Source: an uncultured Gammaproteobacteria bacterium
GTDB lineage: Bacteria > Patescibacteriota > Patescibacteriia > Magasanikbacterales > UBA922
Direction of reading: 5' to 3'
Length of the DNA: 64,000 nucleotides
NCBI GenBank assembly: GCA_964435035.1
Contig: CAYSXR010000001.1
Coordinates: 144,192-208,191, forward strand
The notes under the pieces are model-generated. The model did no database searches. It was not told the origin of the DNA and saw only the letters and a program-made list of their open reading frames with translations. Below, one piece after another: positions 43,378 to 61,794 of this stretch (position 1 is its first letter; each line of letters starts with the position of its first letter). Made by a program: the position numbers and the translations under genes.

Positions 43378-43399
43378 ATTATTTTTTAAATCTGTGTGT

Positions 43400-46240
43400 A
43401 TGGTAGCGATATCCCCCGAACAATCAGTACCGCAAGAATCACGAAAGAAAAAAACACCTGATACGGTAAAAATAGAGAAATATAGTGAGGTGTGGGAGCA
43501 TGCAAAAAATCTGGAGGGTAAAATAAAAAAACTCAAAGAACATGCAATCGATGCGGATGAAATCGGAGAAATAGAAGGTATTCTCAAAGATGCAAAAGGA
43601 TATTTTTCTAGATTTGGAGAGAAAAAAGATAAAGGCAGAAGTGTTGCTCAGCTTGAAGAGAGGCGTAAGGCTGCAGTAGAAAAACTTACTGACCTTAATC
43701 GGCGCATGGTGTCGATGCTTGAAAAATTAGGACAACCAATTCCTAATACTCTTTTGTCGTACAAAGACAGTGGATTTGTTGATATTGTAAAAGAATCTAA
43801 TAAAGAAGGGTTGTCTGAAGAAAAAAAAGAAGAAGTGTCTGAAGTTGTGGGTGCTCATATAATTCAGCCCCCTGAAAATTATTCTAAAGAGTCATTGGGT
43901 GATTCAGAAATTGGTGGTGTGAATAGTATCGAGGCGCCAGAGAAGAAGGAAGAAGTGTTGGTTTCTGCCGAAGAGTCGCCTGTAAATGTACGAGAGGAAT
44001 CATCCTCACCTGAAACACCAATAGAAGATGTTATCAAGATTTCTTCAGGAGGAAAAACATATGAATTCGGCTGGCACGAACAGGTGGTTTACACTACTGC
44101 AAAGGGTAAGCAGCTTGAGTGTATTGTGCTTGGAAAATCAAATGATGAGAATAAGCCGGGGCTTATTTTGAAAGATCTTGAAAAAGGAAAAGTATTTGCT
44201 CTTGGTGCAGATGCGGTTGCAAAACGGGTACATGTTTCTGATGGTGAAATAGTTTCTCCACGTGTAGAAAATAATAAGGCCGATTCTGGTCAATCTGCTG
44301 AAGGTGAAGATATTGATAGAGAAGAAAAAGCTGCTCTTGAAAAAATGAAAAAAGACCAGAGGGAAGTAGAAGAGAAAAAAGCTCAAGAATTAAGTGAATT
44401 ATTAGCACAAGCTGGAAAGTCTGCCGAAGATGACACTTCATTTGTACACACAAGCACAGATGAGAGGGGAAGTTTCGATCAGAAGATGGTTGATAAACTT
44501 GTAGCTGATGGATCGATTGAAAAAATTAACACGTTATTGAAAAATAAATCCGAGGTGTGGGTACAGGAAGATGGTAAATGGTATCAGGGTGTAGTGCAAG
44601 ATATTACCGGAGCACAGGTGGGTGTTACTGTAGGAGAGGAGGGTCGAGAGAAAAAATATTTCTATGTGGATGCTGAAGAATTTTTGGGCATGCAGGATCG
44701 AGCGAAAAAATTGTTGAAATACAAAAAAGAATTAGAGCTTCCCTCGGTGGTGGTGGACACCGAATTCCTCGCTCGTCCAGATACGATCACCAAAGGTGAA
44801 ATTTTTACTCCTCCGACCGAGAGAAAGACCGTACCTGACGTGCCTCTAGTGAGTATTGATACTCCATTGCCGGTACGAGAACGAAAAACCTACCCAGAAG
44901 TTTCAGAAAAAAAAGCAATACAGATGATTCAATCAGTCGCTGAAGAATTTGAAAAAACATGGAAAGGAATGCGCATGATGACGACAGAAAAACAAAAGAC
45001 CGGATGGCTCCAGAGTAAGGAAGTTGAACGAGAGATGACGGTGACAGAAAAAAAGGAGCAATTAGAAGCGTGGCTTGATATGGTGGAGCAGGCATTTGAT
45101 TCACTCGACAAGCAAAAAGATGGGACACACATGGAAAAACCAGTACTCATGTGGCATCAGGCACAGGCATTAATTCGCGCATTAGAAAATGAACTTCGGT
45201 ATACAGAAGAAACGAATAAAAGTGAAGAGTGGGATCACGCACTTGAGGCTTTTAGTAGTATAATTAATGAAAGAAGCACACGTCTCAAGGAAAAAAAGAA
45301 AGGGTCATTGATTGCACCGTGGGCCATGAAAACGACACTTGCTGCCTTGGGTGCTTTTGCAATCGGAAATGCAACAAACAATCGAATAGAAGATGTGGCT
45401 GCAGTGAGTGAACGATATATGGAAGCAGGTGAAAAAAAATATGAATTACCCAGAGAAGAACATACGGGTGATGCACAGAGAAATATGCTAGATTTTGTAA
45501 TTAATATGAATCGGATGATAAACGAGCCCACACTTTCGATAACACCCGTTGCAATTGATGCTCGACTTACTCCACAGATCAAGGATAAAATATCAGGGAA
45601 AGTTCCGGGTTTGGCTGGTGCAGAAATAGCATCTGATGGAAAATCAGTTACATTGACTTTTGATAATAACCAAACAGTTGAAAGTCGTCCTGAAAAAATA
45701 CAAAAGTCGGGTCGCGATAGTTGGAAACTGAAGACAGCTGAGAAAAAGGGTCCGGAGTATGGCGAACAAATGTTGAGAGAATTAAGGAAAGTATTGGGTG
45801 AAGTAAAGCAAGAGTTTCCTGATATGTTTCGTGGACCAGAATCATCTTCCAAGCAAAAGAGAGTAGTAAGAACAGTAGTACAGGCCGAAAAGAAATTACG
45901 AGAAGCAGAGGTAGTAATACCGAGAAGTGGTGAGGCGAGAAGACAGTTGGAACAAGTAAAACAGGTGTTGGAACAAGTAAAACCAGGACTCGAATCTATT
46001 TCAAAAGAGATTGTAGATGAGATTAAGGCAGAGGATCTCGAATTGCCACAGGATGTATTTGTGCGTTTTAGTCGAGAGGTTACGTTTGATCCAAAGGCAG
46101 ATGCTCTATTTGAGGAATGGGGAAATGCACGAAATTCTCTCAAAGCAGCACAGGAAGCAGGAGATCAAGAGGGGGTAAAGAAAAGTAACGAGGAGTTGCG
46201 TAAGGTTATTGAAAAAATAACGAAAGAGTATAGTAAATAA
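43400..46240 (+). CDS. Large charged hypothetical protein with two SH3/Tudor-like beta segments
   Basis: About 946 aa, rich in Lys/Glu coiled-coil-like stretches, with one central hydrophobic segment (TTLAALGAFAIGNA). ATG 43400 preferred over GTG 43394. Confidence 0.6.
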   Translation: MVAISPEQSVPQESRKKKTPDTVKIEKYSEVWEHAKNLEGKIKKLKEHAIDADEIGEIEGILKDAKGYFSRFGEKKDKGRSVAQLEERRKAAVEKLTDLNRRMVSMLEKLGQPIPNTLLSYKDSGFVDIVKESNKEGLSEEKKEEVSEVVGAHIIQPPENYSKESLGDSEIGGVNSIEAPEKKEEVLVSAEESPVNVREESSSPETPIEDVIKISSGGKTYEFGWHEQVVYTTAKGKQLECIVLGKSNDENKPGLILKDLEKGKVFALGADAVAKRVHVSDGEIVSPRVENNKADSGQSAEGEDIDREEKAALEKMKKDQREVEEKKAQELSELLAQAGKSAEDDTSFVHTSTDERGSFDQKMVDKLVADGSIEKINTLLKNKSEVWVQEDGKWYQGVVQDITGAQVGVTVGEEGREKKYFYVDAEEFLGMQDRAKKLLKYKKELELPSVVVDTEFLARPDTITKGEIFTPPTERKTVPDVPLVSIDTPLPVRERKTYPEVSEKKAIQMIQSVAEEFEKTWKGMRMMTTEKQKTGWLQSKEVEREMTVTEKKEQLEAWLDMVEQAFDSLDKQKDGTHMEKPVLMWHQAQALIRALENELRYTEETNKSEEWDHALEAFSSIINERSTRLKEKKKGSLIAPWAMKTTLAALGAFAIGNATNNRIEDVAAVSERYMEAGEKKYELPREEHTGDAQRNMLDFVINMNRMINEPTLSITPVAIDARLTPQIKDKISGKVPGLAGAEIASDGKSVTLTFDNNQTVESRPEKIQKSGRDSWKLKTAEKKGPEYGEQMLRELRKVLGEVKQEFPDMFRGPESSSKQKRVVRTVVQAEKKLREAEVVIPRSGEARRQLEQVKQVLEQVKPGLESISKEIVDEIKAEDLELPQDVFVRFSREVTFDPKADALFEEWGNARNSLKAAQEAGDQEGVKKSNEELRKVIEKITKEYSK

Positions 46241-46416: not shown

Positions 46417-46445
46417 TTGACAAAAAGGTATAAATATGCTATAGT
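46417..46445 (+). promoter_or_regulatory. Consensus sigma70-type promoter (TTGACA-17-TATAGT) driving the GC-rich island
   Basis: acTTGACAaaaaggtataaatatgcTATAGTac is near-identical in layout to the promoter at 63780-63808. Confidence 0.7.
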
Positions 46446-46655
46446 ACTGCGTTATTTCAAAAGCCCTACATAGGTCTTCGAAATAGCAATCCAGGGGCCC
46501 CATCAGAGAGGATATGTGTCCCTTCTGATGGAGTCCCTGGTCTAGGAGCTCCCACTGTGGCCCGTTCGGGCAATAGTGAGAGCCTTAGGCTCATTACAAT
46601 CGAAGAAGCTAGAACACGTGCCCCTATGAAAGGGGTGTAAACGAGGAGATCAGAA
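46446..46655 (+). promoter_or_regulatory. Structured 5' leader of about 200 nt
   Basis: Nested helices ccaggg[ccatcaga...tctgatgg]ccctgg, gcccg-tt-cgggc, gagcc-tta-ggctc, and cccct-atgaa-agggg just before SD gaggag. No known riboswitch recognised. Confidence 0.45.
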
Positions 46656-48104
46656 ATGATTGACCGCAACAAGAAGAGCAACAAGAAGAGCACGCCCGTG
46701 AAGGGCGGCGCTGCGGCGAACCCGCAGGCGATGGCAACCGTGGCGTCTCACAAGGACGACACGGCTCAGATCGATGTGGTGGTCGAGACCAATCCCGAGG
46801 CCGACAAGGTCGAGGGTGAGGTCAAGGCCGATGAAGAGGCGAAGGTCGAAGAGACCGTCGCCACCGCCCCGACCGAGAACGTCGAGAAGAGCGAGGAGCC
46901 GGCCGTTGTGGTCGACCCCGAGCCCGAGCTCGAGCAGAAGCGGAACTTCCGTAAGGAAGACCTCCGCCTCCGGTACAACGACAACCCGCAGGTGCTGCTC
47001 ACCTCCGCGGATCTCAGCGAAGAGGACAAGGTCCTCATCGGCGAGATCGCGAGCGAGCAGAACCAGGTCGTCCGCGACTATGCCGCGCTGGCACAGGAGC
47101 TGACCGACGAGAAGGACCAGCTCGAGCAGAAGCTCGACGCGACCAACTCCAAGCTGGGGAACGTCACCAACCTCATCGCGACCACGGTCAAGGAGACCGT
47201 GGGACAGGTGGACAAGGAGACGTCGGCCTTGATCGAAGGTCTGAAGATCGAGATCGAGGGCGTCATCGGCAAGGGTAACGGCGTGAAGAACGCCGTCACG
47301 AAGATCGGGGACGATGTCAACAAGGACATCGGCTCGCTCAAGGGTCAGGTCAACGCCAACGCCAAGTCGGTCAACGACAAGGTCGATGGGATGGCCGCGA
47401 TGCTCGGGAAGATCGACGAGAAGATCTCCGAGATCAAGTCCCCGCCGCCCCCGCAGCAGCCGCCGGCTCAGTCCAGCACCACCCCGTCCTCCGGATCCTC
47501 CGGGTGGCCGTGGGTCGTGGCCGTGGGCATCTTGCTCGCGGCCGTGATCGCGGTCTTCCTCCTGAACAAGGATGTGAAGATCGAGGTCCAGGTGCAGCAG
47601 CCGGCGGTGAACACCGTGAAGGGTGTGGTGCCGCCGGTGGTGGACAACGCTCTCGGGGTGACCTCGCAGCAGGTGACCCCGGGTGGACCGGGGAATCCGA
47701 TCGTGCCCACGGTGGTCGGTGCCACGTCCGAGGATCCCTGCAAGGGGAAGGTCGGTGGGGAGCTCGGGTCGTGTGTCCTTCAGCTGGAGAAGTTCCGGCC
47801 GAAGGGGTTCACTGATGCGCACTGGAACACGGTCGTCGAGACCTTCCAGAACGTCATCATGGTCCCCTTGAGCGTTCCGTTCAAGGACATCAAGCACCAC
47901 GACAAGGCCATCGAGCACAACATGAGGAAAGACGCGGCACTGCAGGCGTGCGTCGACGCATACGTCTTGAAGACGGATGATGTCGAGTCGAACGTCCGGT
48001 GTCAGCGGGCGGTCGATTGTCTGTTCACTTCGGTGGACGAGGCAGCACAGTGCTACATGACGCATACGCGCTCGATCACGGGCGTTTTGGTCACTGTCAA
48101 CTGA
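46656..48104 (+). CDS. Bitopic membrane protein: acidic coiled-coil N-domain, Pro-rich linker, TM, Cys-containing C-domain (island gene a)
   Basis: 482 aa with an SD upstream. TM helix WPWVVAVGILLAAVIAVFLL. Seven Cys residues, all C-terminal to the TM. Extreme GC3 codon usage (AAG/GAG/GAC/AAC/ATC). Confidence 0.75.
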   Translation: MIDRNKKSNKKSTPVKGGAAANPQAMATVASHKDDTAQIDVVVETNPEADKVEGEVKADEEAKVEETVATAPTENVEKSEEPAVVVDPEPELEQKRNFRKEDLRLRYNDNPQVLLTSADLSEEDKVLIGEIASEQNQVVRDYAALAQELTDEKDQLEQKLDATNSKLGNVTNLIATTVKETVGQVDKETSALIEGLKIEIEGVIGKGNGVKNAVTKIGDDVNKDIGSLKGQVNANAKSVNDKVDGMAAMLGKIDEKISEIKSPPPPQQPPAQSSTTPSSGSSGWPWVVAVGILLAAVIAVFLLNKDVKIEVQVQQPAVNTVKGVVPPVVDNALGVTSQQVTPGGPGNPIVPTVVGATSEDPCKGKVGGELGSCVLQLEKFRPKGFTDAHWNTVVETFQNVIMVPLSVPFKDIKHHDKAIEHNMRKDAALQACVDAYVLKTDDVESNVRCQRAVDCLFTSVDEAAQCYMTHTRSITGVLVTVN

Positions 48105-48159: not shown

Positions 48160-49095
48160 ATGAAGCAGCTCGTCGCGAAGATCGTGGTTTATTACATCGT
48201 ACTTCTCTCGGCGTCGGCCTTCGGCTCGACGCCGAACCCCGGTGACCAGTTCGACCTGATCCAGGGAGGGATCCCGGCGAAGGTCGAGGTCACGCAGCAG
48301 GAGATCAAGGCGATGGACACGTCCATCGACCAGCTCCTGAAGCGCACCGGCGGTCTCCTCAAGAAGGACGCCGAGCTCAAGAAGGAGCTCGAGGACCTCA
48401 AGAAGGAGCTCGAGGACCTCAAGAGCAAGCTCGACAAGGTGGTGAAGCCGGGTGATCTCACGGTCATCCGAGTGGATCTGGGAAGGTTGTGGACGCAAGT
48501 CAACAACCATGGACAGCGCCTCACCGAGCTCGAGCAGGACGTCGAAGATCTGAAGAGGAGCGACAAGGCTCAGGACGATCGACTCGGTGATCACGACCAG
48601 AAAATCGAGGACATCAACAAGCGCCTCGATCGAGGTCTCGGAGTGAAGTTCGGCATCGGAGCCTATGGCGTCTACGGGACGCAAGGCTCGATCAACGGTG
48701 GAGCTTCGGCTCGGCTGAGGATCCCGCTGTCCGGTGGATGGCAAGCGATCGTCAATGGCGGAGTCGGCGGCAACCATCAGGGAGCTTCAGGATTCGCCGA
48801 TCTGTCGGTCGGCTACCAGTTCGCGAGCGGCATCTACCTGGGGGCAACCCTCGGTATCGACGCCAACTGCGACGGTATGTGCACCAGGCTCCTCACGGAG
48901 ATCTGGGGCGCAGGTCCCGACATCGGCTACCTGTCCGACGATGGACTCTTCATCCGGGCTCGTGTGCTCTTCGGGAGCGAGTGGATCAAGGGTCCGACGA
49001 TGCAGATCGAGTACCCGGATCGTACGGTCTTCAAGACCGACGAGTCCCGGGAGTTCGGCATCTCGGCTTTGATCCAGCTCGGTCACGAGTTCTAG
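48160..49095 (+). CDS. Signal-peptide protein with coiled coil and C-terminal OMP-like beta-barrel ending in Phe (island gene b)
   Basis: 311 aa with signal peptide ..LLSASAFG and heptads ELKKELEDLKKELEDLKSKLD. The last 150 aa or so have alternating Gly/aromatic beta-strand patterns and end ..ALIQLGHEF. Confidence 0.7.
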   Translation: MKQLVAKIVVYYIVLLSASAFGSTPNPGDQFDLIQGGIPAKVEVTQQEIKAMDTSIDQLLKRTGGLLKKDAELKKELEDLKKELEDLKSKLDKVVKPGDLTVIRVDLGRLWTQVNNHGQRLTELEQDVEDLKRSDKAQDDRLGDHDQKIEDINKRLDRGLGVKFGIGAYGVYGTQGSINGGASARLRIPLSGGWQAIVNGGVGGNHQGASGFADLSVGYQFASGIYLGATLGIDANCDGMCTRLLTEIWGAGPDIGYLSDDGLFIRARVLFGSEWIKGPTMQIEYPDRTVFKTDESREFGISALIQLGHEF

Positions 49096-49346
49096 ACTTC
49101 AAGATTCGGGGAGTGTCTCTACTCCCCGGACCCCTCACCTCGCCGACTTCAAGGCAGAAGGGATAAGACAATGAGACAAACACTCGAGTAAACGGCGTGG
49201 TCGCACAACGCGGCCCCCAATACTGGAGCATGGGCGATATTTCGAAAGAAATGTCGCCCCTCGCACAGCGTATATCAGTCTCTGGTATGCGATGACGAGA
49301 AAAGCATCTCACGTAAATCCCGACTAAATCGGGACACGTGACAAGC

Positions 49347-49375
49347 TTGACAAACGAGAGTATTTATGCTATACT
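49347..49375 (+). promoter_or_regulatory. Consensus sigma70-type promoter (TTGACA-17-TATACT)
   Basis: gcTTGACAaacgagagtatttatgcTATACTaag, located inside an AT-rich spacer of the GC-rich island. Confidence 0.7.
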
Positions 49376-49498
49376 AAGCTGTTACAAAATAAAGAAGTGC
49401 CATGGGAAATCTCGATGTAGTCGGGGTATCTATGGTAGATCGTCATGCACTGCATGGTGGTCCATTGAACCTTACAATATATGCGAAATGTATAAAAA

Positions 49499-49543
49499 GC
49501 TTGAAAGGCTAGAAAGGCCGGAAAGGCTTGAAATGCTAGAGAA
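49499..49543 (+). repeat. Five tandem 9-nt repeats (GCYNGAAAG) in a 5' leader
   Basis: gcttgaaag gctagaaag gccggaaag gcttgaaat gctagagaa. Confidence 0.75.
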
Positions 49544-49551
49544 CGTATCTT

Positions 49552-49677
49552 GTGACGTGAAGAAAGAAATTTTCAATAAGAATTTTTTCTTAGCGTCACG
49601 AGGAGTTCTCAGGCGTGAAAACTTCTCGTGTGGTACACGAGGAAGCAACAACAAAACCCCGATTGAATCGGGGAGGA
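49552..49677 (+). promoter_or_regulatory. Leader with mutually exclusive hairpins and a hairpin abutting the SD
   Basis: gtgacg...cgtcac hairpin. cttctcgtg (49622-30) can pair with cacgaggag (49597-605) or with cacgaggaag (49636-45). ccccga-ttgaa-tcgggg overlaps the 5' edge of SD ggaggag. Confidence 0.45.
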
Positions 49678-49685
49678 GAAGAGTC

Positions 49686-51452
49686 ATGAAGAAGTTCAAC
49701 AAGTTCCTGTTCGTCGTCATGTTCATCTCGTTCGTCGCGGCCATCACGGGCTGCGCCGATCACGGTGGCGAGACGGTCGTCGTCAAGGGTGACGATGGGG
49801 AGAGCGTCAAGCTCTGCCCCGAGGAGCATCAGTGCTCCTCGGCCGAGTTCTGCAACTCGCAGGGTCTCTGCGTCATCCCCGGTGCCAACGGCACCAACGG
49901 CGAGGACTTCGAGCGATGCTCGAATAGTCGTGGTGACTGTGTCGGTAACGAGCTCTGCAACTCGCAGGGCGTGTGTGTGCTCGAAGGTCCGCAAGGGCCG
50001 GCGGGGGAGTCCTGTACCGTGTCGACGAAGGTCGACGGGTGCTTCTTCCTCTACTGTGGCGCAAGCGTCACGGAGATCTGCGACGGCGAGGACGGTGTGT
50101 CCTGCACGGTCGCAGGGCAGCCGGACGGCAGCGCTCAGGTCGAGTGCTCGGACGGTTCGTTCGCGACCATCCTCCCCGGACAAGACGGCGAGGACGGTCT
50201 CAACGGCACGAGCTGCACGGCCTCGACGGTCAAAGGTTGCCTCGTGGTGACCTGCGGAACGCAGTCGACGGAGATCTGCCCGGAGGATCTTCCGGATCCC
50301 GAGCCGGTCGACGGCTGCCAGAAGGACTCGGACTGCACGGACGGCAGCGAGTGCACCAACGACATCTGCGATCTCAACACCGGCACCTGCCGGTACGTGT
50401 CGCAGGTGTGTGATGACGGCGTCGCCTGCACCAACGACTGGTGTGACACGAACGGCTACTGCCGTTCGACCGCGGACAATGATCAGTGCAGCGGCGGCGA
50501 CTTCTGCTTGCCGACCGGTTACTGGTTTTGGTCCTCGGCGGTGGGTTCTGAGGAACTCGCTGACGGAGGCTGTTACGAGTGCCGCTGGGACTCTGATTGT
50601 GCCGACGGCGACGCGTGTACGGTCGACACCTGCGACGCGGGTGTTTGCAAGAAGGAAACGCGCGAGTGCCCCACGGGTGCGACGTGCGTCGAGTACTCGA
50701 GCAACTACTACGACGACTCGGAGTGGAACTACGTGTGCCAGGACAATCCGTCGTGCAGCAACAACAGCCAGTGCGACGACGGCAAGTACTGGACGACGGA
50801 TGCGTGCGTGGCCGGGGAGTGTGTCTACACCCAGGTGTCGTGCAACGACAACAACGCATGCACCGTGGACACGGTGAACTCGAGTGGGCAGTGCACCTAC
50901 GCCCAGATCTCGTGCGACGATGGCAAATCCGCCACGGTCGACACGTGCTCTGCGAATACGGGGTGCGTACACACGCCGGTGAACACCGGCTGCGAGCACG
51001 ATCTCGATTGCGATGACGTCGACGGTACGACCACGGACCTGTGCGAGGACAACGGGAGCTGTACACATACTCCCAATGCCCAGTGCAAGTCCCTGACGGT
51101 CAAGGTCGGCTGGGCCATCCTGTGGTCGCGCGGTCCCGAGATCGGAACCACCAATGTCCCGATGGGCAACTGGCGTAGCTGCGAGGAAGACGAGGCGGAG
51201 AACTGCCGTACCATGTCGTGGTGCGGTGACGACATCGTGGAGTTCAATGTTCAGCAGATGCCGAACGTGGCAGGTGCCGACTGGCTCGTGAAGAACGAGA
51301 AAGGCGACAGCCCTTGCACGTCGAACGCAGATGCGACCTTGAACTACACGCCCGCTGATCTCTTCGTCGGGGCGACGCCGGTGCAGAAGGGCTGTTCGCT
51401 CTTCTGCGACCCGAACGGGTACACCAACTACACCTGCGATTCCGCGGAGTAG
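49686..51452 (+). CDS. Cys-rich repeat lipoprotein (island gene c)
   Basis: Start MKKFNKFLFVVMFISFVAAITGC (lipobox) follows SD ggggaggag. Repeats of the form C.(D/N)D.C....G.C, resembling Dictyostelium-CTDC-type units. The ORF-track start at 49338 was rejected. Confidence 0.75.
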   Translation: MKKFNKFLFVVMFISFVAAITGCADHGGETVVVKGDDGESVKLCPEEHQCSSAEFCNSQGLCVIPGANGTNGEDFERCSNSRGDCVGNELCNSQGVCVLEGPQGPAGESCTVSTKVDGCFFLYCGASVTEICDGEDGVSCTVAGQPDGSAQVECSDGSFATILPGQDGEDGLNGTSCTASTVKGCLVVTCGTQSTEICPEDLPDPEPVDGCQKDSDCTDGSECTNDICDLNTGTCRYVSQVCDDGVACTNDWCDTNGYCRSTADNDQCSGGDFCLPTGYWFWSSAVGSEELADGGCYECRWDSDCADGDACTVDTCDAGVCKKETRECPTGATCVEYSSNYYDDSEWNYVCQDNPSCSNNSQCDDGKYWTTDACVAGECVYTQVSCNDNNACTVDTVNSSGQCTYAQISCDDGKSATVDTCSANTGCVHTPVNTGCEHDLDCDDVDGTTTDLCEDNGSCTHTPNAQCKSLTVKVGWAILWSRGPEIGTTNVPMGNWRSCEEDEAENCRTMSWCGDDIVEFNVQQMPNVAGADWLVKNEKGDSPCTSNADATLNYTPADLFVGATPVQKGCSLFCDPNGYTNYTCDSAE

Positions 51453-51669
51453 TCGTACCCACAAACATTTCGTGTAAAAGCTTTGAGTAGCCTAGCTACC
51501 AGACTCAAAGTTCAATCAACGTAGCGGGAGGGGGCACAAGCGTTCATCTGAATTGCGCAAGCGATTCAGTGACGAGTGCCTCCCTCCCATTCCAACATAT
51601 CTTTATCAAAATTCAGAACTCAGATTACAGTGAGAGACTAGTGAGTATTGGTAGAGAGATGTGGGGATG

Positions 51670-51727
51670 GAAAATTCAAAACTTAAAACTTAAAACTCAA
51701 AATTTAGATTTAAGTTGTGAGTTATTA
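51670..51727. repeat. A/T-word intergenic repeat (family C, copy 2) inside the GC-rich island
   Basis: gaaaattcaaaacttaaaacttaaaactcaaaatttagatttaagttgtgag. Confidence 0.55.
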
Positions 51728-51795
51728 CAAACCCTTTCCATCATTATGATGGTTTCAATTCCCCTCAACCGCGACGACAGAAATGTCACGCGCGG

Positions 51796-51821
51796 AAAAA
51801 ACCCGCGCATGCGGGTTTTTT
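51796..51821. terminator. Strong bidirectional terminator
   Basis: aaaaaacccgc-gcat-gcgggtttttt. Confidence 0.85.
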
Positions 51822-51913
51822 AAATTCCATTACCTCGGGTATATCGTATAATGATGGTATATCTATGGTAGAGGAATTCTACACGCCAGTTCACAAAAAC
51901 CAGGAGGGGACAC

Positions 51914-52651
51914 ATGTTGGGTATGACGTTTCGTTTGTTTGTTTTCTGTCTCACCGTGTTCACCGCCGCATGCATCGAGGATATGCGGCGGGAGGAAGCG
52001 TCCATGGTCCAGGTCGATACGTCGACTGGCATCATGGATATGGTGGAGGAAGTCAAAGACGTACCAGATTCACGGGTCCGTGATCGGTATGATATCGAAT
52101 TTCCTCCTACAGCCGACGAGTGTGTCGTCGATGAATTCATCGCAGAGGGAAGCCCTTGCGATGATGGCGATGCATGCACGATCGATGTCTGTATCCAGGG
52201 CATGTGTCGTAATCGAGCTATCGACTGCGACGACGGAAATCCCTGGACGGATGACGAGTGCATCGTCGACACTGGGGCGTGCTCCAGTGTACATCGGGTG
52301 ACTCATTTCACCGTTCGCGCGGAGCGTCCGGGAAAGGTGAAGCTTTGGTATGGGAATCACACCGAGCCAGAGACCTATCCCATGAACTCGAGCTTCGAGA
52401 TCCAGAAGATGGATCTCTGCGTCGAGAACCGTGTGCTCACGCTCGCGGTAGAGGACGAAGAGTTCCCGGGAACCTACTGGGGTTGTAACCCTGGCCTTCC
52501 TTCGAAGAGGGAACTCGCAGTCGAGATCGACGGGGTGGACACGCCCGGTTATTTCGCTGCGGATCTCGGATGGGAGGTGCCCAACTCTGCGTGTGGTGGG
52601 AAGGGAGAGGGTGACCTCTACTTCTTGCGGGCGCAACTCGCATGTGACTGA
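51914..52651 (+). CDS. Small Cys-rich lipoprotein sharing the C-terminal domain of gene e (island gene d)
   Basis: SD aggagggg upstream. Signal peptide ..LTVFTAAC. Two Cys-rich units (CDDGDACTIDVC, CDDGNPWTDDEC). The C-domain motif CNPGLPSKRELAVEIDGV matches CNPGFPSKSTLTVMVNGV in gene e. Confidence 0.7.
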   Translation: MLGMTFRLFVFCLTVFTAACIEDMRREEASMVQVDTSTGIMDMVEEVKDVPDSRVRDRYDIEFPPTADECVVDEFIAEGSPCDDGDACTIDVCIQGMCRNRAIDCDDGNPWTDDECIVDTGACSSVHRVTHFTVRAERPGKVKLWYGNHTEPETYPMNSSFEIQKMDLCVENRVLTLAVEDEEFPGTYWGCNPGLPSKRELAVEIDGVDTPGYFAADLGWEVPNSACGGKGEGDLYFLRAQLACD

Positions 52652-52739
52652 TGACCGGGTGTCTCGCGAAGGATAGGATGGCGTATACGCTATGCTGTCC
52701 ACCTTCGCGAGCACCACTAATTCAACAAATAGAATTATA

Positions 52740-52768
52740 TTGACAAAATACTCTTTTCCTGATATGTT
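52740..52768 (+). promoter_or_regulatory. Putative promoter (TTGACA-17-TATGTT)
   Basis: The -35 is consensus and the -10 is weak. A leader of about 220 nt follows, with the long hairpin ctagagg..ccctctag (52881-52946). Confidence 0.45.
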
Positions 52769-52998
52769 GATACGATTGTATCTACGCATATCGGATATCT
52801 AGAGAGGTATCTGGTATGCGCCACTGGAGAATCATTCTCAAGTGTGTATGTTCATTATAATCACATAAGTTTTTTGTTCAGCTAGAGGATGGGTGCAGAT
52901 AGAGGTATATGTAACATATCTTGTATCGATAGCCACCCTCTAGCTGAGACACAGTGTCACTGCTGGAGTTCAACGGCCTCACAACGGAGGAAGGCCAA

Positions 52999-55041
52999 AT
53001 GCGTCTGAAGAACAACAACAACCGGATGTTCATCATCACGGTTGCCCTCGCCATGGGGTTCATGGCGGCGTGCACGGAACACGGCGGCGACGAGCCGATC
53101 GTGGTCGTGATGAAGGCGGACCTCGACCTCGACGAGGTCCCCAACAACGTCGACAACTGCCCGGGGGACAACAACCCCGATCAGTTGGACACCGACGGCG
53201 ACGGCATGGGCGATGCGTGCGACAACGACGTCGACGGCGACGGGGTCTTGAACCCCGCCGACAACTGCCCCGACAACTTCAACCCCGACCAGGCGAACCT
53301 CGACAAGGTCCTGGCCGACAGCGGCAACGTCACCGTGGTCGCGGATCTCTTCGGAGACGTCTGCGACAACGACGACGACGGCGACGTGGTCTGCGACCCC
53401 TGGCTCGGCGTGGACGGGTGGGAAGAATTCCATCCCGGTCAGGGCGAGACGTGTCAGGGCGAGGACAACTGTCCCGACGTCGCCAACGCCGACCAGGCGA
53501 ACCTCGACAAGGACTTCGAGGGCGACGTCTGCGACAACGACGTCGACGGCGACGGCGACCTCAACGGCGCAGACAACTGCCCGCTCGTGACCAACGCCGA
53601 CCAGGCAAACCTGGATCGGGACGACTGGGGCGACGCCTGCGACACCGACGACGACAACGACAGCTTCTGCGACGAAGCTGCCCCCGTCTCGATGCCGCGA
53701 AATGCGCCCGCGATGCCCCTCTGCGAGGGCGAGGACAACTGCCCCCGCTTCAAGAACGCGGGACAGGAAGACATGGACGAGGACGGCATGGGCGACGTCT
53801 GCGACGACGACTGCGACGGGGACCTCTACCCCGAAGCGTCGCCCTGGGATTTCCCCAACCTGTCGTGCTTCGTGTATTGCAATCCGGAAGGTCCGGGAAC
53901 CGAGTGCGACGACGCGAACACGTGCACCACGGACACCTGCAACGGGCAGGGCGTTTGCGAGTACGTGTTCACGCAGTCCGAGACGTGCGAATGCGTCTTG
54001 GACTCCGACTGCGAGCCGACCGACGCCTGCGTCACCGAGATGGCGTGCGTGGAAAACACGTGCGTCGAGACCGGATGGAAGGTCCTGACCGACGGGGACA
54101 ACTGCACCATCGACACCTGTGATCCCTCGACCGGCGTGGTCACCCACGTCGAGAAGGACTGTGGTGGGGACCTCTGCGGAGGAGGCCTCTCGTGTAACCG
54201 CATGACCGGAGAGTGCAGCACACCCGTGCCGCAAATTCCGATCAACGACAGCAACGCCTGCACCACCGACGCGTGCGATCCCGAGACCGGCGTGGTCACC
54301 CACGTCGCGATCGTCTGCGACGATGGGAACGCATGCAACGGCACCGAGACGTGCAACCCGGCTTCCGGGTGCGTCGCGGGTACGCCGCTCACGTGCGATG
54401 ACGGAAGCGTCTGCACGATCGACAGTTGTTCGGCAAACACCTGCCAACACGTGGCGGTGACGACGAACGACAACAACATGTGCACCACCGACACCTGCGA
54501 TCCCGAGATGGGGGTGCAGCACACGGCGGTGGTGTGCAACGACGTGAACTCCAACACCACCGACACCTGCGATCCGGCGACGGGTTGCGTGCACACGCCG
54601 ACGGGGAACTGCACGGTCAACGCGGATTGCAACGACAGCAATCCCCTGACCTACGACACCTGCGTCGCGCTCGTCTGCCAACATGTGGAAGGTGTCCGCG
54701 TGCAGGTCTCGTCGACCGACACGTCGGAGACCTGGCAGGTCAATTTCTACTACAACGGTACGACGATCTCCGGCAACCTGCCCTTCGACGGGACCTTGCC
54801 GAAGACGCTCGCATGCAGCTGGGGCGCCGACATCGCCGTCAACCGTCCGAGCACGAACTTGTTCTTGGACTGCAACCCGGGGTTCCCCTCGAAGTCCACC
54901 CTGACCGTCATGGTCAATGGTGTCACGAAGGCGAACGACTTCCAGGTTCGTTCGCAGGCATGCGACGGCGCTCCGCCGGGCAACCTGTGGCTCTCCGACG
55001 AGAGCGGTGACAACGACCTGGGATGCCCCGCGGCACCCTAG
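52999..55041 (+). CDS. Lipoprotein with thrombospondin-type-3-like Ca-binding repeats and Cys-rich repeats (island gene e)
   Basis: SD ggaggaagg, then MRLKNNNNRMFIITVALAMGFMAAC. Repeated DNCPxxxNxDQxDxDxDGxGDxCDxDxDGD units, then repeated CxxDxCDPxTGxxH units. The mature N-terminus CTEHGGDE resembles CADHGGE of gene c. Confidence 0.75.
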   Translation: MRLKNNNNRMFIITVALAMGFMAACTEHGGDEPIVVVMKADLDLDEVPNNVDNCPGDNNPDQLDTDGDGMGDACDNDVDGDGVLNPADNCPDNFNPDQANLDKVLADSGNVTVVADLFGDVCDNDDDGDVVCDPWLGVDGWEEFHPGQGETCQGEDNCPDVANADQANLDKDFEGDVCDNDVDGDGDLNGADNCPLVTNADQANLDRDDWGDACDTDDDNDSFCDEAAPVSMPRNAPAMPLCEGEDNCPRFKNAGQEDMDEDGMGDVCDDDCDGDLYPEASPWDFPNLSCFVYCNPEGPGTECDDANTCTTDTCNGQGVCEYVFTQSETCECVLDSDCEPTDACVTEMACVENTCVETGWKVLTDGDNCTIDTCDPSTGVVTHVEKDCGGDLCGGGLSCNRMTGECSTPVPQIPINDSNACTTDACDPETGVVTHVAIVCDDGNACNGTETCNPASGCVAGTPLTCDDGSVCTIDSCSANTCQHVAVTTNDNNMCTTDTCDPEMGVQHTAVVCNDVNSNTTDTCDPATGCVHTPTGNCTVNADCNDSNPLTYDTCVALVCQHVEGVRVQVSSTDTSETWQVNFYYNGTTISGNLPFDGTLPKTLACSWGADIAVNRPSTNLFLDCNPGFPSKSTLTVMVNGVTKANDFQVRSQACDGAPPGNLWLSDESGDNDLGCPAAP

Positions 55042-55226
55042 AACTTCTCCTGCGACGACTGCAGGAGCATCTCGAAGTGAACGTGTGATTCGCTTCTGTA
55101 GGTGAATGTTCGAAGACAATCACACAAACCGGGGGAAGTGCGCTCGCTACTACAGCGACCGCTTCCTCCCCTCTACTCTGAATTCAAGTACGATCTTGAG
55201 AATAGAGTAGAAGGGCACGCTAGAAT

Positions 55227-55248
55227 AACCGCACTATGCGGTTTTTTT
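55227..55248 (+). terminator. Rho-independent terminator at right edge of island
   Basis: aaccgca-cta-tgcggtt followed by ttttt. Confidence 0.8.
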
Positions 55249-55253
55249 GTTAT

Positions 55254-55355
55254 GTCATTCCGAGCGAGTGCACCCGAGCCGAGGAATCTTTCCTGTATAA
55301 GACCATGTAAGAAAGATTCCTCGACTCCCTCGGAGACTCGGTCGCTCGGAATGAC
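55254..55355. repeat. Palindromic MITE-like element (family D, solo copy)
   Basis: Perfect 14-bp termini gtcattccgagcga / tcgctcggaatgac and inner 13-bp inverted repeat cgaggaatctttc / gaaagattcctcg. Its arms match the arms of the copies at 61107 and 61583. Confidence 0.75.
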
Positions 55356-61106: not shown

Positions 61107-61244
61107 GTCATCCCGAGGGAGGAGTGCATCCGACGATTCGAGGGATCTTTCCTGCATAAGGCTGATTAGGAAAAATGTATTTAAAGCTTAGTAAGGACTT
61201 GGTAGGAAAGATTCCTCGACTCGGGTGCACTCGCTCGGAATGAC
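61107..61244. repeat. Palindromic MITE-like element (family D, copy 2)
   Basis: gtcatcccgaggga...tcgctcggaatgac. The right arm matches the reverse complement of the left arm of 55254-55355 with one mismatch. Flanks extend the inverted repeat (taatgt/acatta). Confidence 0.75.
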
Positions 61245-61287
61245 ACATTAAGTAATTGTATTGGGTGGTAAAAAGTAAGGGGGTAGT

Positions 61288-61566
61288 ATGAAAACATACT
61301 ATGTGTATATTATGTCGAGCATTAATCAAACACTCTATGTCGGTATAACCAATAATTTATTCCGTAGAGTTTTTGAACATAGGATGAAACTCAATGAAGG
61401 TTTTACAGAAAAATATCAGATATATAAATTAGTATATGCTGAATACTATACAAATGTGCAGGAGGCAATACGTCGTGAAAAACAAATCAAAAAGTGGCGT
61501 CGAGAGAAGAAAATCAAATTGATTGAAAAAGATAATCCCGATTGGGTGGATCTCGCAAGGAATTAA
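61288..61566 (+). CDS. GIY-YIG nuclease family protein (small, stand-alone)
   Basis: 92 aa: YYVYIMSS..QTLYVGITNNLFRRVFEHRMK...E...REKQIKKW. Confidence 0.8.
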   Translation: MKTYYVYIMSSINQTLYVGITNNLFRRVFEHRMKLNEGFTEKYQIYKLVYAEYYTNVQEAIRREKQIKKWRREKKIKLIEKDNPDWVDLARN

Positions 61567-61582
61567 TGGTGTGATTGGTATT

Positions 61583-61719
61583 GTCATTCCGAGCGACCGA
61601 GTCTTCGAGGGAGTCGAGGAATCTTTCCTGTATAGTATTCTGTAAAAAAATGTAACTATAGTTTGGTAAATACTTTGCAGGAAAGATTTCTCGACTCGGG
61701 TGCACTCACTCGAAATGAC
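61583..61719. repeat. Palindromic MITE-like element (family D, copy 3)
   Basis: gtcattccgagcgaccgagtcttcgagggagtcgaggaatctttcctg ... caggaaagatttctcgactcgggtgcactcactcgaaatgac. It has the same two arm types as the 55254 copy, in inverted order. Confidence 0.75.
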
Positions 61720-61794
61720 AGTGAATAGCTCGGAATCAGGTCACAGAAGTTGCAAATATGCTTGGATCAAGTATCATTACCTTGAAGAATAAGA

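What the first reader, a model, noticed from the sequence alone, without database searches (positions are those of the whole stretch)
49686..55041. Paralogous family of three Cys-rich lipoproteins with eukaryote-flavoured repeats
Genes c, d and e all start with lipobox-type signal peptides (..AAITGC, ..FTAAC, ..FMAAC). Genes c and e share the mature N-terminus C(A/T)(D/E)HGG(E/D). Genes d and e share a C-terminal domain (CNPGLPSKRELAVEIDGV versus CNPGFPSKSTLTVMVNGV, with conserved Cys spacing). The bodies are modular. Gene e has about 6-7 thrombospondin-type-3-like calcium-binding units (DNCPxxxNxDQxDxDxDGxGDxCDxD). All three carry units of roughly 24 residues of the form CxDxNxCTxDxCDxxTGxCxH, resembling Dictyostelium CTDC repeats. 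Variable repeat number on a conserved head and tail is the pattern expected of adhesins or variable surface ligands.
Basis: partly seen in the sequence, partly recalled or inferred. Interest (0 to 1): 0.65.

Follow-up and report, generated by a model that had tools for sequence, protein, structure and literature searches.

The report
GC-rich surface lipoprotein island in Patescibacteria
Three related cysteine-rich surface lipoprotein genes sit in a five-gene, fast-evolving island of an ultra-small (CPR) bacterium, and the island's coding regions alone are written in G/C-ending codons inside an A/T-rich genome, a bias that seems to be actively maintained.

Summary
Genes c (49686-51452), d (51914-52651) and e (52999-55041) are real paralogues. 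BLASTP gives 2e-16 to 5e-8. All three have rule-conforming lipoboxes. Gene e has strong TSP_3 and Dicty_CTDC matches.

The repeats are not eukaryotic in origin, because thousands of prokaryotic proteins carry them.

The host is a Candidatus Magasanikiibacteriota (CPR) bacterium. The three genes are the right half of a five-gene island at 46.6-55.1 kb. The left half holds a bitopic membrane protein (a) and a coiled-coil protein ending in an OmpX/Ail-like 8-stranded barrel (b).

Two other MAGs carry the same island at the same locus, and a 3-kb contig carries its left part. Heads, repeat blocks and two tail types are shuffled between versions. dN/dS is 0.6-0.7, against 0.05-0.14 in the flanks. 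A d-e block was recently exchanged between lineages.

The island ORFs have GC3 of 0.65-0.89, against 0.26-0.42 in host genes. The spacers stay AT-rich and hold conserved promoters and structured leaders. No outside homologue exists for a, for the b barrel or for the tail. At fourfold sites, G/C-to-A/T changes are about 9-fold depleted (p=1.5e-12). The bias is therefore maintained in place and is not simply left over from gene transfer.

The most likely function is partner or surface adhesion and recognition. This is inferred, not shown.

The parts
46417..46445 (+). Sigma-70-type promoter of the a-b operon (TTGACA-17-TATAGT, with TG extension)
   Evidence: 11 of 12 matches. The sequence block is conserved in L009 and L010.
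46446..46600 (+). Conserved structured 5' leader of gene a, with three hairpins
   Evidence: Nearly invariant in three genomes whose gene a proteins are only 31-53% identical. The consensus fold is -72.9 kcal/mol with 55 pairs. No Rfam match.
46656..48104 (+). Gene a: 482-aa bitopic membrane protein. It has an acidic, coiled-coil N-terminal part, one TM helix and a C-terminal domain with 6 conserved Cys. GC3 is 0.88.
   Evidence: No Pfam or NCBIfam family. No homologue of the C-terminal domain in 5.8 billion proteins or in the PDB. Orthologues are in L009, L010 and L013.
48160..49095 (+). Gene b: 311 aa. It has a signal peptide, a long coiled coil and a C-terminal 8-stranded beta-barrel ending in ...LGHEF. 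GC3 is 0.81.
   Evidence: AF2 gives pLDDT 80-92 over residues about 161-311, with 8 strands. Foldseek top hits are Ail, NspA, OmpX, OmpA-TM, OmpW and OprF-N at probability 1.0. Only 2 homologues exist among 1.84 billion representatives.
49347..49375 (+). Promoter of gene c (TTGACA-17-TATACT), nearly the same as the gene a promoter
   Evidence: Conserved in L010 and L013.
49545..49685 (+). Conserved structured leader of gene c. It has a stem of about 27 pairs and a hairpin whose 3' arm overlaps the Shine-Dalgarno sequence.
   Evidence: W, L010 and L013; 49 pairs, 5 with compensatory changes.
49686..51452 (+). Gene c: 588-aa lipoprotein. Signal and lipobox end at C23, followed by the CADHGG head, novel Cys repeats, about 4 CTDC-like units (residues about 206-465) and tail type 2 (residues about 468-588). 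GC3 is 0.84.
51787..51811 (.). GC-rich hairpin with T-run, a terminator-like site between c and d
   Evidence: Partly conserved in L009.
51914..52651 (+). Gene d: 245-aa lipoprotein. Lipobox Cys is C20. It has 2 CTDC-like units (residues about 79-125) and tail type 1 (residues about 126-245). GC3 is 0.65.
   Evidence: The orthologue in L009 is 79% identical.
52740..52768 (+). Promoter of gene e (TTGACA-17-TATGTT)
   Evidence: The spacer is about 95% identical in L009.
52999..55041 (+). Gene e: 680-aa lipoprotein. Lipobox Cys is C25, followed by the CTEHGG head, 5 TSP-3 calcium-binding repeats (about 53104-53890), 7 CTDC units (about 53896-54678) and tail type 1 (54679-55038). GC3 is 0.89.
   Evidence: The TSP-3 part matches COMP (8e-36) and thrombospondin-2 in the PDB.
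55227..55243 (+). Intrinsic terminator after e. It marks the right edge of the island and of the recently exchanged d-e block.
   Evidence: W-L009 nucleotide identity falls from 0.99 to 0.57 between the windows that start at 55012 and 55162.

Best explanation
Genes c, d and e are members of a lineage-specific family of exported, N-terminally lipid-anchored, disulfide-rich and calcium-binding modular surface proteins of a Candidatus Magasanikiibacteriota (CPR/Patescibacteria) bacterium.

They form the right half of a five-gene island inserted in a cell-envelope glycan locus (Wzz ... GT4-Wzy_C-GT4-GHL15). The left half is an operon. It encodes a bitopic membrane protein with a Cys6 ectodomain (a) and a coiled-coil protein ending in an OmpX/Ail-type 8-stranded beta-barrel (b).

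Inferred mechanism. After Sec export and lipidation, the lipoproteins project rigid stalks from the cell surface. The stalks are built of TSP-3 calcium 'wires' and stacked CTDC disulfide hairpins. They present a small 4-Cys tail domain and act as adhesins or recognition ligands for a partner cell or surface. Proteins a and b would supply a membrane-anchored tether.

The island is a diversification hotspot. Modules are shuffled between paralogues and lineages, protein evolution is about 10-fold accelerated, and allele blocks are exchanged between species.

Each transcription unit keeps an AT-rich, conserved promoter and structured leader. The ORFs alone are held in G/C-ending codons by a force that removes G/C-to-A/T synonymous changes. 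That force could be selection on the mRNA or its translation, or ORF-restricted biased conversion. It is not a passive relic of a recent import.

Shown: the family relationship, the domains, the lipobox rule, the barrel fold (as a model), synteny, the rates, the exchange and the codon statistics. Inferred: lipidation, surface exposure, adhesion and the nature of the force on codons.
For: Family and domains.

Host identity: 90%-identity clusters of flanking proteins are named Candidatus Magasanikbacteria. L009 is titled Candidatus Magasanikiibacteriota.

The island is not an artefact. Identical sequence occurs in Logan contigs from three runs. The same GC-rich-ORF and AT-rich-spacer mosaic sits at the same locus in L009 and L005/L010, and upstream of the same GT4 gene at the contig end in L008. 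L013, a 3-kb contig without flanks, shows the same mosaic.

Barrel.

Rates: flanks W-L010 have dN/dS 0.05-0.14 with dS 0.39-0.66. Gene a has dN/dS 0.72 with dS 0.55, and gene b has 0.69.

Exchange: e W-L009 has dS 0.19 (0.02-0.08 over codons 423-680), against flank dS of 1.1-2.1. Identity is 83-99% over 52182-55160, against about 72% in the flanks.

Codon anomaly: GC3 is 0.65-0.89 against 0.26-0.42. Spacers are 0.42-0.47, except the 55-nt a-b gap inside the operon (0.60), and host intergenic DNA is 0.34. AAA falls from 0.80 to 0.06, ATC rises from 0.20 to 0.97 and TTC rises from 0.20 to 0.93, while K/(K+R) and the FYMINK/GARP fractions of a and b stay host-like.

Active maintenance: at fourfold sites the S>W:S>S ratio is 34:58 in the island and 100:19 in the flanks (odds ratio 0.11, p=1.5e-12). 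GC3 stays at 0.8-0.9 in lineages whose synonymous sites are saturated.

No outside donor was found.
Against: - No experiment or expression data exist. Lipidation machinery (Lgt, LspA) and disulfide machinery could not be checked from one window.
- The tail domain could not be modelled (pLDDT 44), so no binding function can be read from structure.
- An OMP-type barrel has no obvious home in a lineage thought to lack an outer membrane (PMC12102498). This would fit a foreign origin.
- c and e use Val over Ile as GC-rich genomes do.
- TSP-3 and CTDC proteins abound in GC-rich Myxococcota-like bacteria.
- The polarised counts still show net S>W over W>S (34 against 11), strongest on the L010 branch. 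Slow decay is therefore not excluded.
- Only 3 MAGs and a few short contigs carry the island.
- Parsimony counts at divergent sites are approximate.
Confidence: 0.6

Rival explanations
1. The island is a block acquired by horizontal transfer from a GC-rich diderm bacterium, for example Myxococcota or Bdellovibrionota-like or the CPR cell's own partner. The GC-ending codons would be a donor signature that has not yet ameliorated. The island then spread among Magasanikiibacteriota by recombination.
For: - GC1/GC2/GC3 of 0.53-0.62, 0.37-0.51 and 0.65-0.89 (0.81-0.89 in four of the five genes) resemble genes of a genome of roughly 60-65% GC (values; the genome-GC comparison is from memory and was not computed).
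- The gene set looks like that of a diderm: an OMP-like barrel plus lipoproteins.
- The TSP-3 region gives a partial hit to Myxococcus MtsC (114 bits). Many repeat hits are in Polyangiaceae, Bradymonadia and Deltaproteobacteria.
- Inter-lineage exchange of d-e is demonstrated.
- Val is favoured over Ile in c and e.
- There is net S>W flux on the L010 branch.
Against: - No homologue of a, the b barrel or tail 1 exists outside this clade in 1.8-5.8 billion proteins.
- The spacers are AT-rich, with promoters and leaders conserved across the lineages.
- dS of a (0.55) equals that of the flanks (0.39-0.66), as expected for vertical descent.
- GC3 is still 0.8-0.9 in lineages with saturated synonymous sites.
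- S>W changes are about 9-fold depleted relative to S>S compared with host genes.
- a and b remain Lys-rich, with K/(K+R) of 0.59-0.79 against 0.62 in the host.
- No integrase, flanking tRNA or flanking direct repeats were found.
Confidence: 0.22
2. The GC-ending codons result from GC-biased gene conversion in a recombination hotspot, not from selection. Frequent conversion between paralogous repeats and between strains would push synonymous sites toward G/C.
For: - The island demonstrably recombines and is full of paralogous repeat DNA.
- Recombining bacterial genes tend to have higher GC3 (PMC4450053).
- The substitution pattern, with S>W depleted and S>S free, is what biased conversion predicts.
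Against: - The effect is far larger than I recall for bacterial biased conversion, which is a few percent of GC3. That size is from memory; the passages read give none.
- The effect stops at ORF boundaries. The promoter-proximal part of the b-c spacer is about 43% GC (windows 49250-49699), and the spacers as a whole are 42-47% GC.
- Genes a and b are not repeated yet are equally biased.
- The adjacent upstream gene (43394-46240) is also hypervariable and phylogenetically incongruent, yet has a normal GC3 of 0.31.
Confidence: 0.15
3. The pattern is an artefact: a chimeric assembly or a mis-binned GC-rich contaminant joined to a CPR contig.
For: There is an abrupt GC change. Logan contigs break near the right junction.
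Against: - AT-rich spacers alternate with GC-rich ORFs within single contigs.
- The same arrangement appears in independent assemblies from different projects. In L009, L010 and the window, CPR genes lie on both sides.
- The Logan breaks coincide with copies of a palindromic repeat (55254-55355, 61230-61244), not with the GC boundary.
Confidence: 0.01

Closest known systems
Thrombospondin/COMP type-3 repeat 'calcium wire' (Pfam TSP_3, PF02412) as found in many bacterial surface proteins
   Same: Gene e has 5 units of DNCPxxxNxDQxDxDxDGxGDxCD above the Pfam threshold. It matches the solved COMP and TSP-2 signature domains at 8e-36 and 7e-28.
   Different: There is no C-terminal lectin-like thrombospondin domain, no EGF repeats and no coiled-coil oligomeriser. 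The anchor is a lipobox. The repeats are fused to CTDC units and a novel tail. c and d have no TSP_3.
Dictyostelium CTDC repeat (Pfam PF00526)
   Same: There are units of about 24 residues of the form CxDxNxCTxDxCDxxTGxCxH. Gene e scores 96.4 bits with 7 units.
   Different: The name is historical. The repeat is common in bacteria and archaea. c (26.8 bits) and d (21.2 bits) fall below Pfam's cut-off of 27 and are tied in only through e.
Myxococcus TraA/TraB kin-recognition adhesin pair (PMC6372800)
   Same: TraA/TraB is a polymorphic surface receptor with Cys-rich repeats and a lipid-type anchor. It is encoded beside an outer-membrane beta-barrel partner, and TSP-3 repeats are part of the system. 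It evolves rapidly and determines which cells stick together.
   Different: No PA14-like variable domain, MYXO-CTERM tag or OmpA domain was detected. TSP-3 sits on the lipoprotein here, not on the barrel protein. The host is a CPR bacterium presumed to be monoderm. There is no sequence-level homology beyond the repeats.
Myxococcus MtsC cell-cell cohesion protein (NCBIfam NF047638)
   Same: It is a TSP-3-repeat surface protein. Gene e aligns over about 150 residues (114.5 bits).
   Different: The score is far below the family cut-off of 350, and there is no MYXO-CTERM. Gene e is not a member.
OmpX/Ail/NspA/OmpA-N family of 8-stranded outer-membrane barrels (for gene b)
   Same: The predicted fold, strand number, alternating Gly/aromatic strands and C-terminal Phe all agree.
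   Different: No sequence-family hit. There is a roughly 135-residue N-terminal coiled coil. The organism is from a lineage thought to lack an outer membrane (PMC12102498).
Borrelia vls antigenic-variation locus, a GC-rich surface-lipoprotein locus in an AT-rich genome. This is recalled from memory and was not verified; searches did not retrieve the statement.
   Same: It is a surface lipoprotein locus whose coding DNA is much more GC-rich than the genome and is recombination-active.
   Different: There are no silent cassettes, no strong GC skew and no single expression site. Each gene here has its own promoter.

Membership tests
Bacterial lipoprotein (signal peptidase II substrate; PROSITE PS51257-type) | N-terminal signal peptide with K/R, a hydrophobic core and a lipobox [LIVMFWSTAG](2)-[LIVMFYSTAGCQ]-[AGS]-C, with the Cys at position 15-35 | tested here: met
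   c has C23, d has C20 and e has C25. 11 of the 12 family N-termini tested pass, counting two partial sequences. L010 c' narrowly fails. Cys counts after the lipobox are even in 10 of 10 full-length members.
Bacterial lipoprotein (signal peptidase II substrate; PROSITE PS51257-type) | Presence of Lgt and LspA in the genome, and actual acylation | not testable with these tools
   Only 64 kb of the genome is available, and no lgt or lspA gene was seen among the window genes scanned.
TSP_3 (PF02412) | Score above the Pfam gathering threshold (25 bits) | tested here: met
   Gene e scores 78.2 bits with 5 stretches. c and d give no hit, so only e is a member.
Dicty_CTDC (PF00526) | Score above the Pfam gathering threshold (27 bits) | tested here: inconclusive
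   Gene e scores 96.4 bits (met). Gene c scores 26.8 bits, just under the threshold. Gene d scores 21.2 bits (not met). The c and d repeats align significantly to the CTDC region of e.
MtsC (NF047638) and MYXO-CTERM surface proteins | Equivalog score of at least 350, and a C-terminal MYXO-CTERM sorting tag | tested here: not met
   114.5 bits only. No MYXO-CTERM model hit was found in any island protein.
TraA/TraB outer-membrane-exchange receptor | PA14-like variable domain plus Cys-rich repeats plus MYXO-CTERM (TraA); barrel plus TSP-3 plus OmpA domain (TraB) | tested here: not met
   There are no PA14, OmpA or MYXO-CTERM hits. Only the module types (Cys repeats, TSP-3, barrel) recur. The resemblance is functional, and the architecture is taken from PMC6372800.
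8-stranded OMP barrel (OmpX/Ail/OmpA-N) | An 8-stranded antiparallel transmembrane barrel with a C-terminal aromatic residue | tested here: met
   The AF2 model has 8 strands at pLDDT 80-92. Foldseek gives probability 1.0 to Ail, NspA, OmpX and OmpW. The C-terminus is F or W in 4 of 5 homologues. This rests on a model, and there is no sequence-family hit.
8-stranded OMP barrel (OmpX/Ail/OmpA-N) | An outer membrane and BAM machinery in the producing cell | not testable with these tools
   The rest of the genome is not available. The literature proposes that Patescibacteria have no outer membrane (PMC12102498).
Classical horizontally acquired genomic island or mobile element | Deviant composition plus mobility genes, tRNA or direct-repeat borders, and an identifiable donor | tested here: not met
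   Composition is deviant. There is no integrase or transposase, no flanking tRNA and no flanking direct repeats. There are no PHROG hits beyond coiled-coil noise, no viral relatives and no donor homologues.
Cassette-based antigenic variation (vls/pilS type) | One expression site plus arrays of promoterless silent cassettes | tested here: not met
   Three of the four transcription units have a scanner-called promoter, and d has a candidate -10 upstream. The genes start with full signal peptides and have Shine-Dalgarno sites. No truncated copies were found.

The most novel reading that the evidence does not exclude
The ORF-restricted G/C-ending 'codon dialect' is an adaptive, selected property of a partner-interaction module. 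It would be neither a transfer relic nor biased conversion. The genes would be kept apart from the cell's normal translational or RNA-decay regime, for example by rare-codon or tRNA-gated translation, or by protection of very long-lived mRNAs. The module would include an OMP-type barrel that a monoderm CPR cell can use only by planting it in the outer membrane of its diderm partner, as a coiled-coil harpoon. The Cys-rich lipoproteins would then determine partner specificity.
Probability: 0.12. Interest if true: 0.9.

Novelty: new variant of a known kind. Interest (0 to 1): 0.68.

Why it matters
CPR/Patescibacteria are mostly uncultured epibionts, and how they recognise and hold on to partners is largely unknown. 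This island offers a concrete, fast-evolving candidate apparatus: lipoprotein stalks, a membrane protein and an OMP-like barrel.

Two further points are of general interest.

(1) A set of genes in an AT-rich genome has kept GC3 near 0.85, in coding sequence only, through saturating divergence, and there is a measurable filter against G/C-to-A/T synonymous changes. That is hard to explain with standard amelioration or translational-selection ideas. It makes the question of selection against biased conversion directly testable with the existing read sets.

(2) Standard gene callers trained on the host genome mis-call these ORFs, choosing in-phase antisense or wrong-frame ORFs. Families like this are therefore systematically missing from protein databases, and similar islands may be overlooked elsewhere.

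Tried and rejected
- Chimera or contamination was rejected.
- I first read the Logan contig breaks at 55326-55355 as population heterogeneity of the island. I rejected this because the breaks coincide with copies of a palindromic repeat that also occurs at 61230 and 61583.
- A profile search with tail type 1 (A2) in the 5.8-billion-protein set returned only one 87-aa fragment.
- The C-terminal domain of gene a returned nothing.
- A2 was too divergent for the search for related loci. The e/e' tail alignment found only two loci in GTDB genomes.
- A metagenome scan with a 17-mer from the gene a leader gave 54 hits. All were chance matches, with no extended similarity.
- The viral-contig scan gave nothing.
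- Rfam on the island gave only sub-threshold noise.
- PHROGs and PADLOC gave only coiled-coil noise for b.
- AF2 of the CTDC-plus-tail region of d was unusable (pLDDT 43.8), so no fold search was run.
- PDB sequence searches for the gene a ectodomain, tail 1 and c gave nothing.
- The highest-coverage (P0012) and a CTDC-type (P0022) non-self hit to e lie in ordinary large genomes and share only repeats.
- Translational selection toward the host's preferred codons was rejected. infC and the two ORFs beside it (probably L35 and L20, judged from their sequences alone) have GC3 of 0.26-0.40 and mostly use AAA.
- Dual coding by the long antisense ORFs was rejected. They are the in-phase complements, and they stay open simply because TTA, CTA and TCA codons are absent.
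- A literature search found no description of this island or of GC3-recoded genes in CPR.

Full report
**Observation.** An independent gene caller made the same calls on Logan contigs that are base-for-base identical to the window. All three N-termini satisfy a PROSITE-type lipoprotein rule, with lipobox Cys at positions 23, 20 and 25. In all ten full-length family members I collected, the number of Cys residues after the lipobox Cys is even (60, 12 and 56 in c, d and e). This is expected if the first Cys is lipidated and the rest are disulfide-paired. BLASTP gives c-e 2e-16, d-e 2e-8 and c-d 5e-8. Pfam gives e Dicty_CTDC 96.4 bits (7 units) and TSP_3 78.2 bits (5 units). Gene c scores 26.8 bits for CTDC against a cut-off of 27, and d scores 21.2. 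The TSP-3 part of e matches the solved COMP and thrombospondin-2 structures. Two corrections apply. The 4-Cys C-terminal domain is shared by d and e but not by c. Gene c has a second tail type, whose only relative is the c gene of another MAG (45% identity, 7e-29).

**'Eukaryote-flavoured' is nominal.** The e query returned 5,547 significant proteins, almost all from bacterial and archaeal genomes and metagenomes. They share only the repeats, at no more than 53% identity over no more than 53% of the query.

**Host and context.** Flanking genes are ordinary bacterial housekeeping genes: PheT, PGM, PPDK, pyruvate kinase, IF3, SmpB and a tmRNA. Their 90%-identity clusters are named Candidatus Magasanikbacteria, which belongs to the Patescibacteria/Parcubacteria group. 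The island lies inside an envelope-glycan locus, with Wzz upstream and GT4-Wzy_C-GT4-GHL15 downstream.

**The three genes are half of an island.** The window is about 40% GC except for 46.6-55.1 kb. Five consecutive + strand ORFs there have GC3 of 0.88, 0.81, 0.84, 0.65 and 0.89, against 0.26-0.42 for 23 host genes. The four long spacers between transcription units drop back to 42-47% GC, while the 55-nt a-b gap inside the operon is 60%. Pooled host intergenic DNA is 34% GC.
- Gene a (46656-48104) is a bitopic membrane protein with a 6-Cys C-terminal domain.
- Gene b (48160-49095) has a signal peptide, a coiled coil and a C-terminal domain. AlphaFold models that domain as an 8-stranded barrel (pLDDT 80-92). 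Its best structural matches are Ail, NspA, OmpX, OmpA-TM, OmpW and OprF-N.
- The a-b operon, c and e each have a near-consensus sigma-70 promoter. Gene d has only a candidate -10 box, read by eye. Leaders are long, Shine-Dalgarno sites are strong and terminators are present.

**The island is not an artefact and not private to this genome.** The same mosaic of GC-rich ORFs and AT-rich spacers lies at the same locus in GCA_964447765.1 (L005/L010) and in MAG_812 (L009). It also lies upstream of the same GT4 gene at the contig end in GCA_018061425.1 (L008). A further 3-kb Logan contig (L013), which has no flanking genes, shows the same mosaic. Gene content differs between versions:
- The window has a, b, c, d and e.
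- L009 has a short a, then b, a different c, d and e.
- L010 has a, b, a collagen-containing c with tail 1, an extra gene x, e, and a 756-aa collagen/CTDC gene f.

Heads (CADHGG), repeat blocks and the two tails are recombined in different ways. The database gene caller placed wrong-frame and antisense ORFs across the island in the NCBI MAG. This explains why a and b are absent from the protein collection, and why c and e are on record there only from Logan contigs. The antisense ORFs are the in-phase complements. They stay open because TTA, CTA and TCA codons are essentially absent.

**Evolutionary dynamics.** Downstream flanks are 89-94% identical between the window and L010, and 69-73% identical to L009. 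Within the island, a and b are 53% and 41% identical to L010, while d and e are 79% and 82% identical to L009 but only 53% to L010.

| Comparison | dN/dS | dS |
|---|---|---|
| Flanks, W-L010 | 0.05-0.14 | 0.39-0.66 |
| Gene a, W-L010 | 0.72 | 0.55 |
| Gene b, W-L010 | 0.69 | 0.83 |

The dS of a matches the flanks, so a looks vertically inherited while its protein evolves about ten times faster. For e, window against L009, dS is 0.19 overall and 0.02-0.08 over the last 260 codons, whereas flank dS is 1.1-2.1. Nucleotide identity is 83-99% over 52182-55160 and collapses at the terminator after e. A d-e block was therefore exchanged recently between species-level lineages. Spacer elements are more conserved than the ORFs. 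The gene a leader (three hairpins) is nearly invariant in three genomes, and the gene c leader is conserved in three.

**The codon anomaly.** Synonymous usage is inverted:

| Codon | Host fraction | Island fraction |
|---|---|---|
| AAA | 0.80 | 0.06 |
| GAA | 0.73 | 0.18 |
| ATC | 0.20 | 0.97 |
| TTC | 0.20 | 0.93 |
| AAC | 0.14 | 0.87 |

The amino-acid make-up of a and b remains host-like. K/(K+R) is 0.79 and 0.59 against 0.62 in the host, and the FYMINK and GARP fractions are similar. c and e do favour Val over Ile. infC and the two small ORFs beside it (probably ribosomal proteins L35 and L20, judged from their sequences alone) use A/T-ending codons, so the island does not use the host's 'optimal' set.

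GC3 at conserved fourfold sites is 0.73-0.94 in all island versions except gene b of L010, where it is about 0.55. This holds even where synonymous identity has fallen to the level expected from composition alone, in the L009-L010 comparisons of a and b. Parsimony counts at fourfold sites with conserved residues give:

| Change | Island | Flanks |
|---|---|---|
| S>S | 58 | 19 |
| S>W | 34 | 100 |
| W>S | 11 | 134 |

The S>W:S>S ratio is about 9-fold lower in the island (odds ratio 0.11, p=1.5e-12). G/C-to-A/T synonymous changes are therefore being filtered in place.

The evidence against a simple recent import from a GC-rich donor is as follows:
- That filter on synonymous changes.
- Conserved synteny across the lineages.
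- AT-rich conserved spacers.
- No homologue of a, the b barrel or tail 1 outside the clade. Tail 1 found one 87-aa fragment, a found none, and the b barrel found 2 of 1.84 billion representatives.
- No mobility genes or border repeats.

An ancient import is not excluded. The diderm-like gene set (barrel plus lipoproteins) and the Val/Ile usage would fit it. The L010 branch also shows net decay.

GC-biased conversion (PMC4450053) predicts the substitution pattern, but it fits the other data poorly. The bias stops at the ORF ends. The non-repeated genes a and b are equally biased. The equally hypervariable upstream gene (43394-46240) has a normal GC3 of 0.31.

**Function.** Nothing here is experimental. 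From the architecture I infer lipid-anchored, calcium-stiffened, disulfide-rich stalks presenting small tail domains. Their rapid diversification and allele exchange fit adhesion or recognition of a partner cell, or evasion of something that targets them. The closest functional analogue I could document is the Myxococcus TraA/TraB pair. It is a polymorphic Cys-repeat surface receptor with a barrel/TSP-3 partner (PMC6372800). Its defining domains (PA14, MYXO-CTERM, OmpA) are absent here, and the MtsC model is missed by a wide margin. The OMP-type barrel is puzzling in a lineage proposed to lack an outer membrane (PMC12102498). It may be a relic of a diderm origin, or it may act on a partner's outer membrane.

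**Verdict.** As proteins, these are a new variant of a known kind: prokaryotic TSP-3/CTDC surface proteins. The region earns a higher score for three reasons: the ORF-restricted and apparently maintained GC-ending recoding, the OMP-like barrel in a CPR genome, and the systematic mis-annotation that hides such genes.

Noticed in passing
window 46446-46600 (also L009 3691-3845, L010 2303-2455): A structured element of about 155 nt with three hairpins lies between the promoter and gene a. It is nearly invariant across three genomes whose flanking genes are about 72-90% identical and whose gene a proteins are 31-53% identical. No Rfam family matches. It is a candidate new cis-regulatory leader or small RNA.
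   Followed up: partly
window 49545-49685 (also L010 5215-5365, L013 2632-2779): A conserved leader lies upstream of gene c. It has a stem of about 27 pairs and a second hairpin whose 3' arm overlaps the Shine-Dalgarno sequence, so translational control is possible. A segment of about 200 nt just after gene b (49097-49300) is also 91% conserved in L010.
   Followed up: partly
window 55245-55355, 61110-61250 and 61583-61725: There are three copies of a palindromic, MITE-like repeat of about 110-140 nt, with ends GTCATTCCGAGCGA...TCGCTCGGAATGAC. By eye, the two right-hand copies bracket a small ORF at about 61289-61567 that looks like a GIY-YIG nuclease; this was not tested. The copy at 55245-55355 is absent from L009 and L010. 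Short-read (Logan) contigs break at these repeats.
   Followed up: partly
L005 873-8140 (NCBI GCA_964447765.1) and the window island: The public gene calls in the GC-rich island are wrong-frame or antisense ORFs, for example a 748-aa antisense 'protein' opposite the e orthologue. The window has matching in-phase antisense ORFs of 720, 622 and 471 aa. The real proteins are therefore missing from protein databases.
   Followed up: yes
window 43394-46240: The 948-aa Lys/Glu-rich protein just upstream of the island has no Pfam match. It is itself fast-evolving (dN/dS 0.28) and phylogenetically incongruent, being closer to L009 (64%) than to L010 (51%), unlike the downstream flanks. Its GC3 is nonetheless normal for the host (0.31).
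   Followed up: partly
L010 / L005 (contig CAYUTO010000002.1): This MAG is titled 'uncultured Gammaproteobacteria bacterium'. Its genes at this locus are 89-94% identical to the window's Magasanikiibacteriota genes, so the label is probably a misclassification.
   Followed up: no
window 49495-49540 and 51678-51706: There are short AT-rich tandem repeats inside the spacers: 5 copies of a 9-nt unit AAAGGCTAG and 4 copies of a 7-nt unit AAAACTT. Both fall in spacer stretches that align poorly with L009 and L010.
   Followed up: no
window 11900-15238, 21473-27466, 27628-29610: Other large predicted surface proteins (M23 peptidase with lamin-tail domain; a 1997-aa LVIVD/Big_13/fn3 protein; a CarboxypepD_reg protein) have normal host codon usage with GC3 of 0.27-0.28. 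The GC-ending bias is therefore not a general property of exported proteins in this genome.
   Followed up: partly
L010 5366-6703 and 10856-13126; L013 2780-3007: Relatives of gene c and the extra gene f contain collagen-like G-X-Y runs (Pfam Collagen, 1e-12 and 3e-11). The c genes of L009 and L010 also contain a repeated Cys unit ending in GxWGxWGxC that matched no Pfam or NCBIfam family in these scans. Neither module is present in the window's copies.
   Followed up: partly
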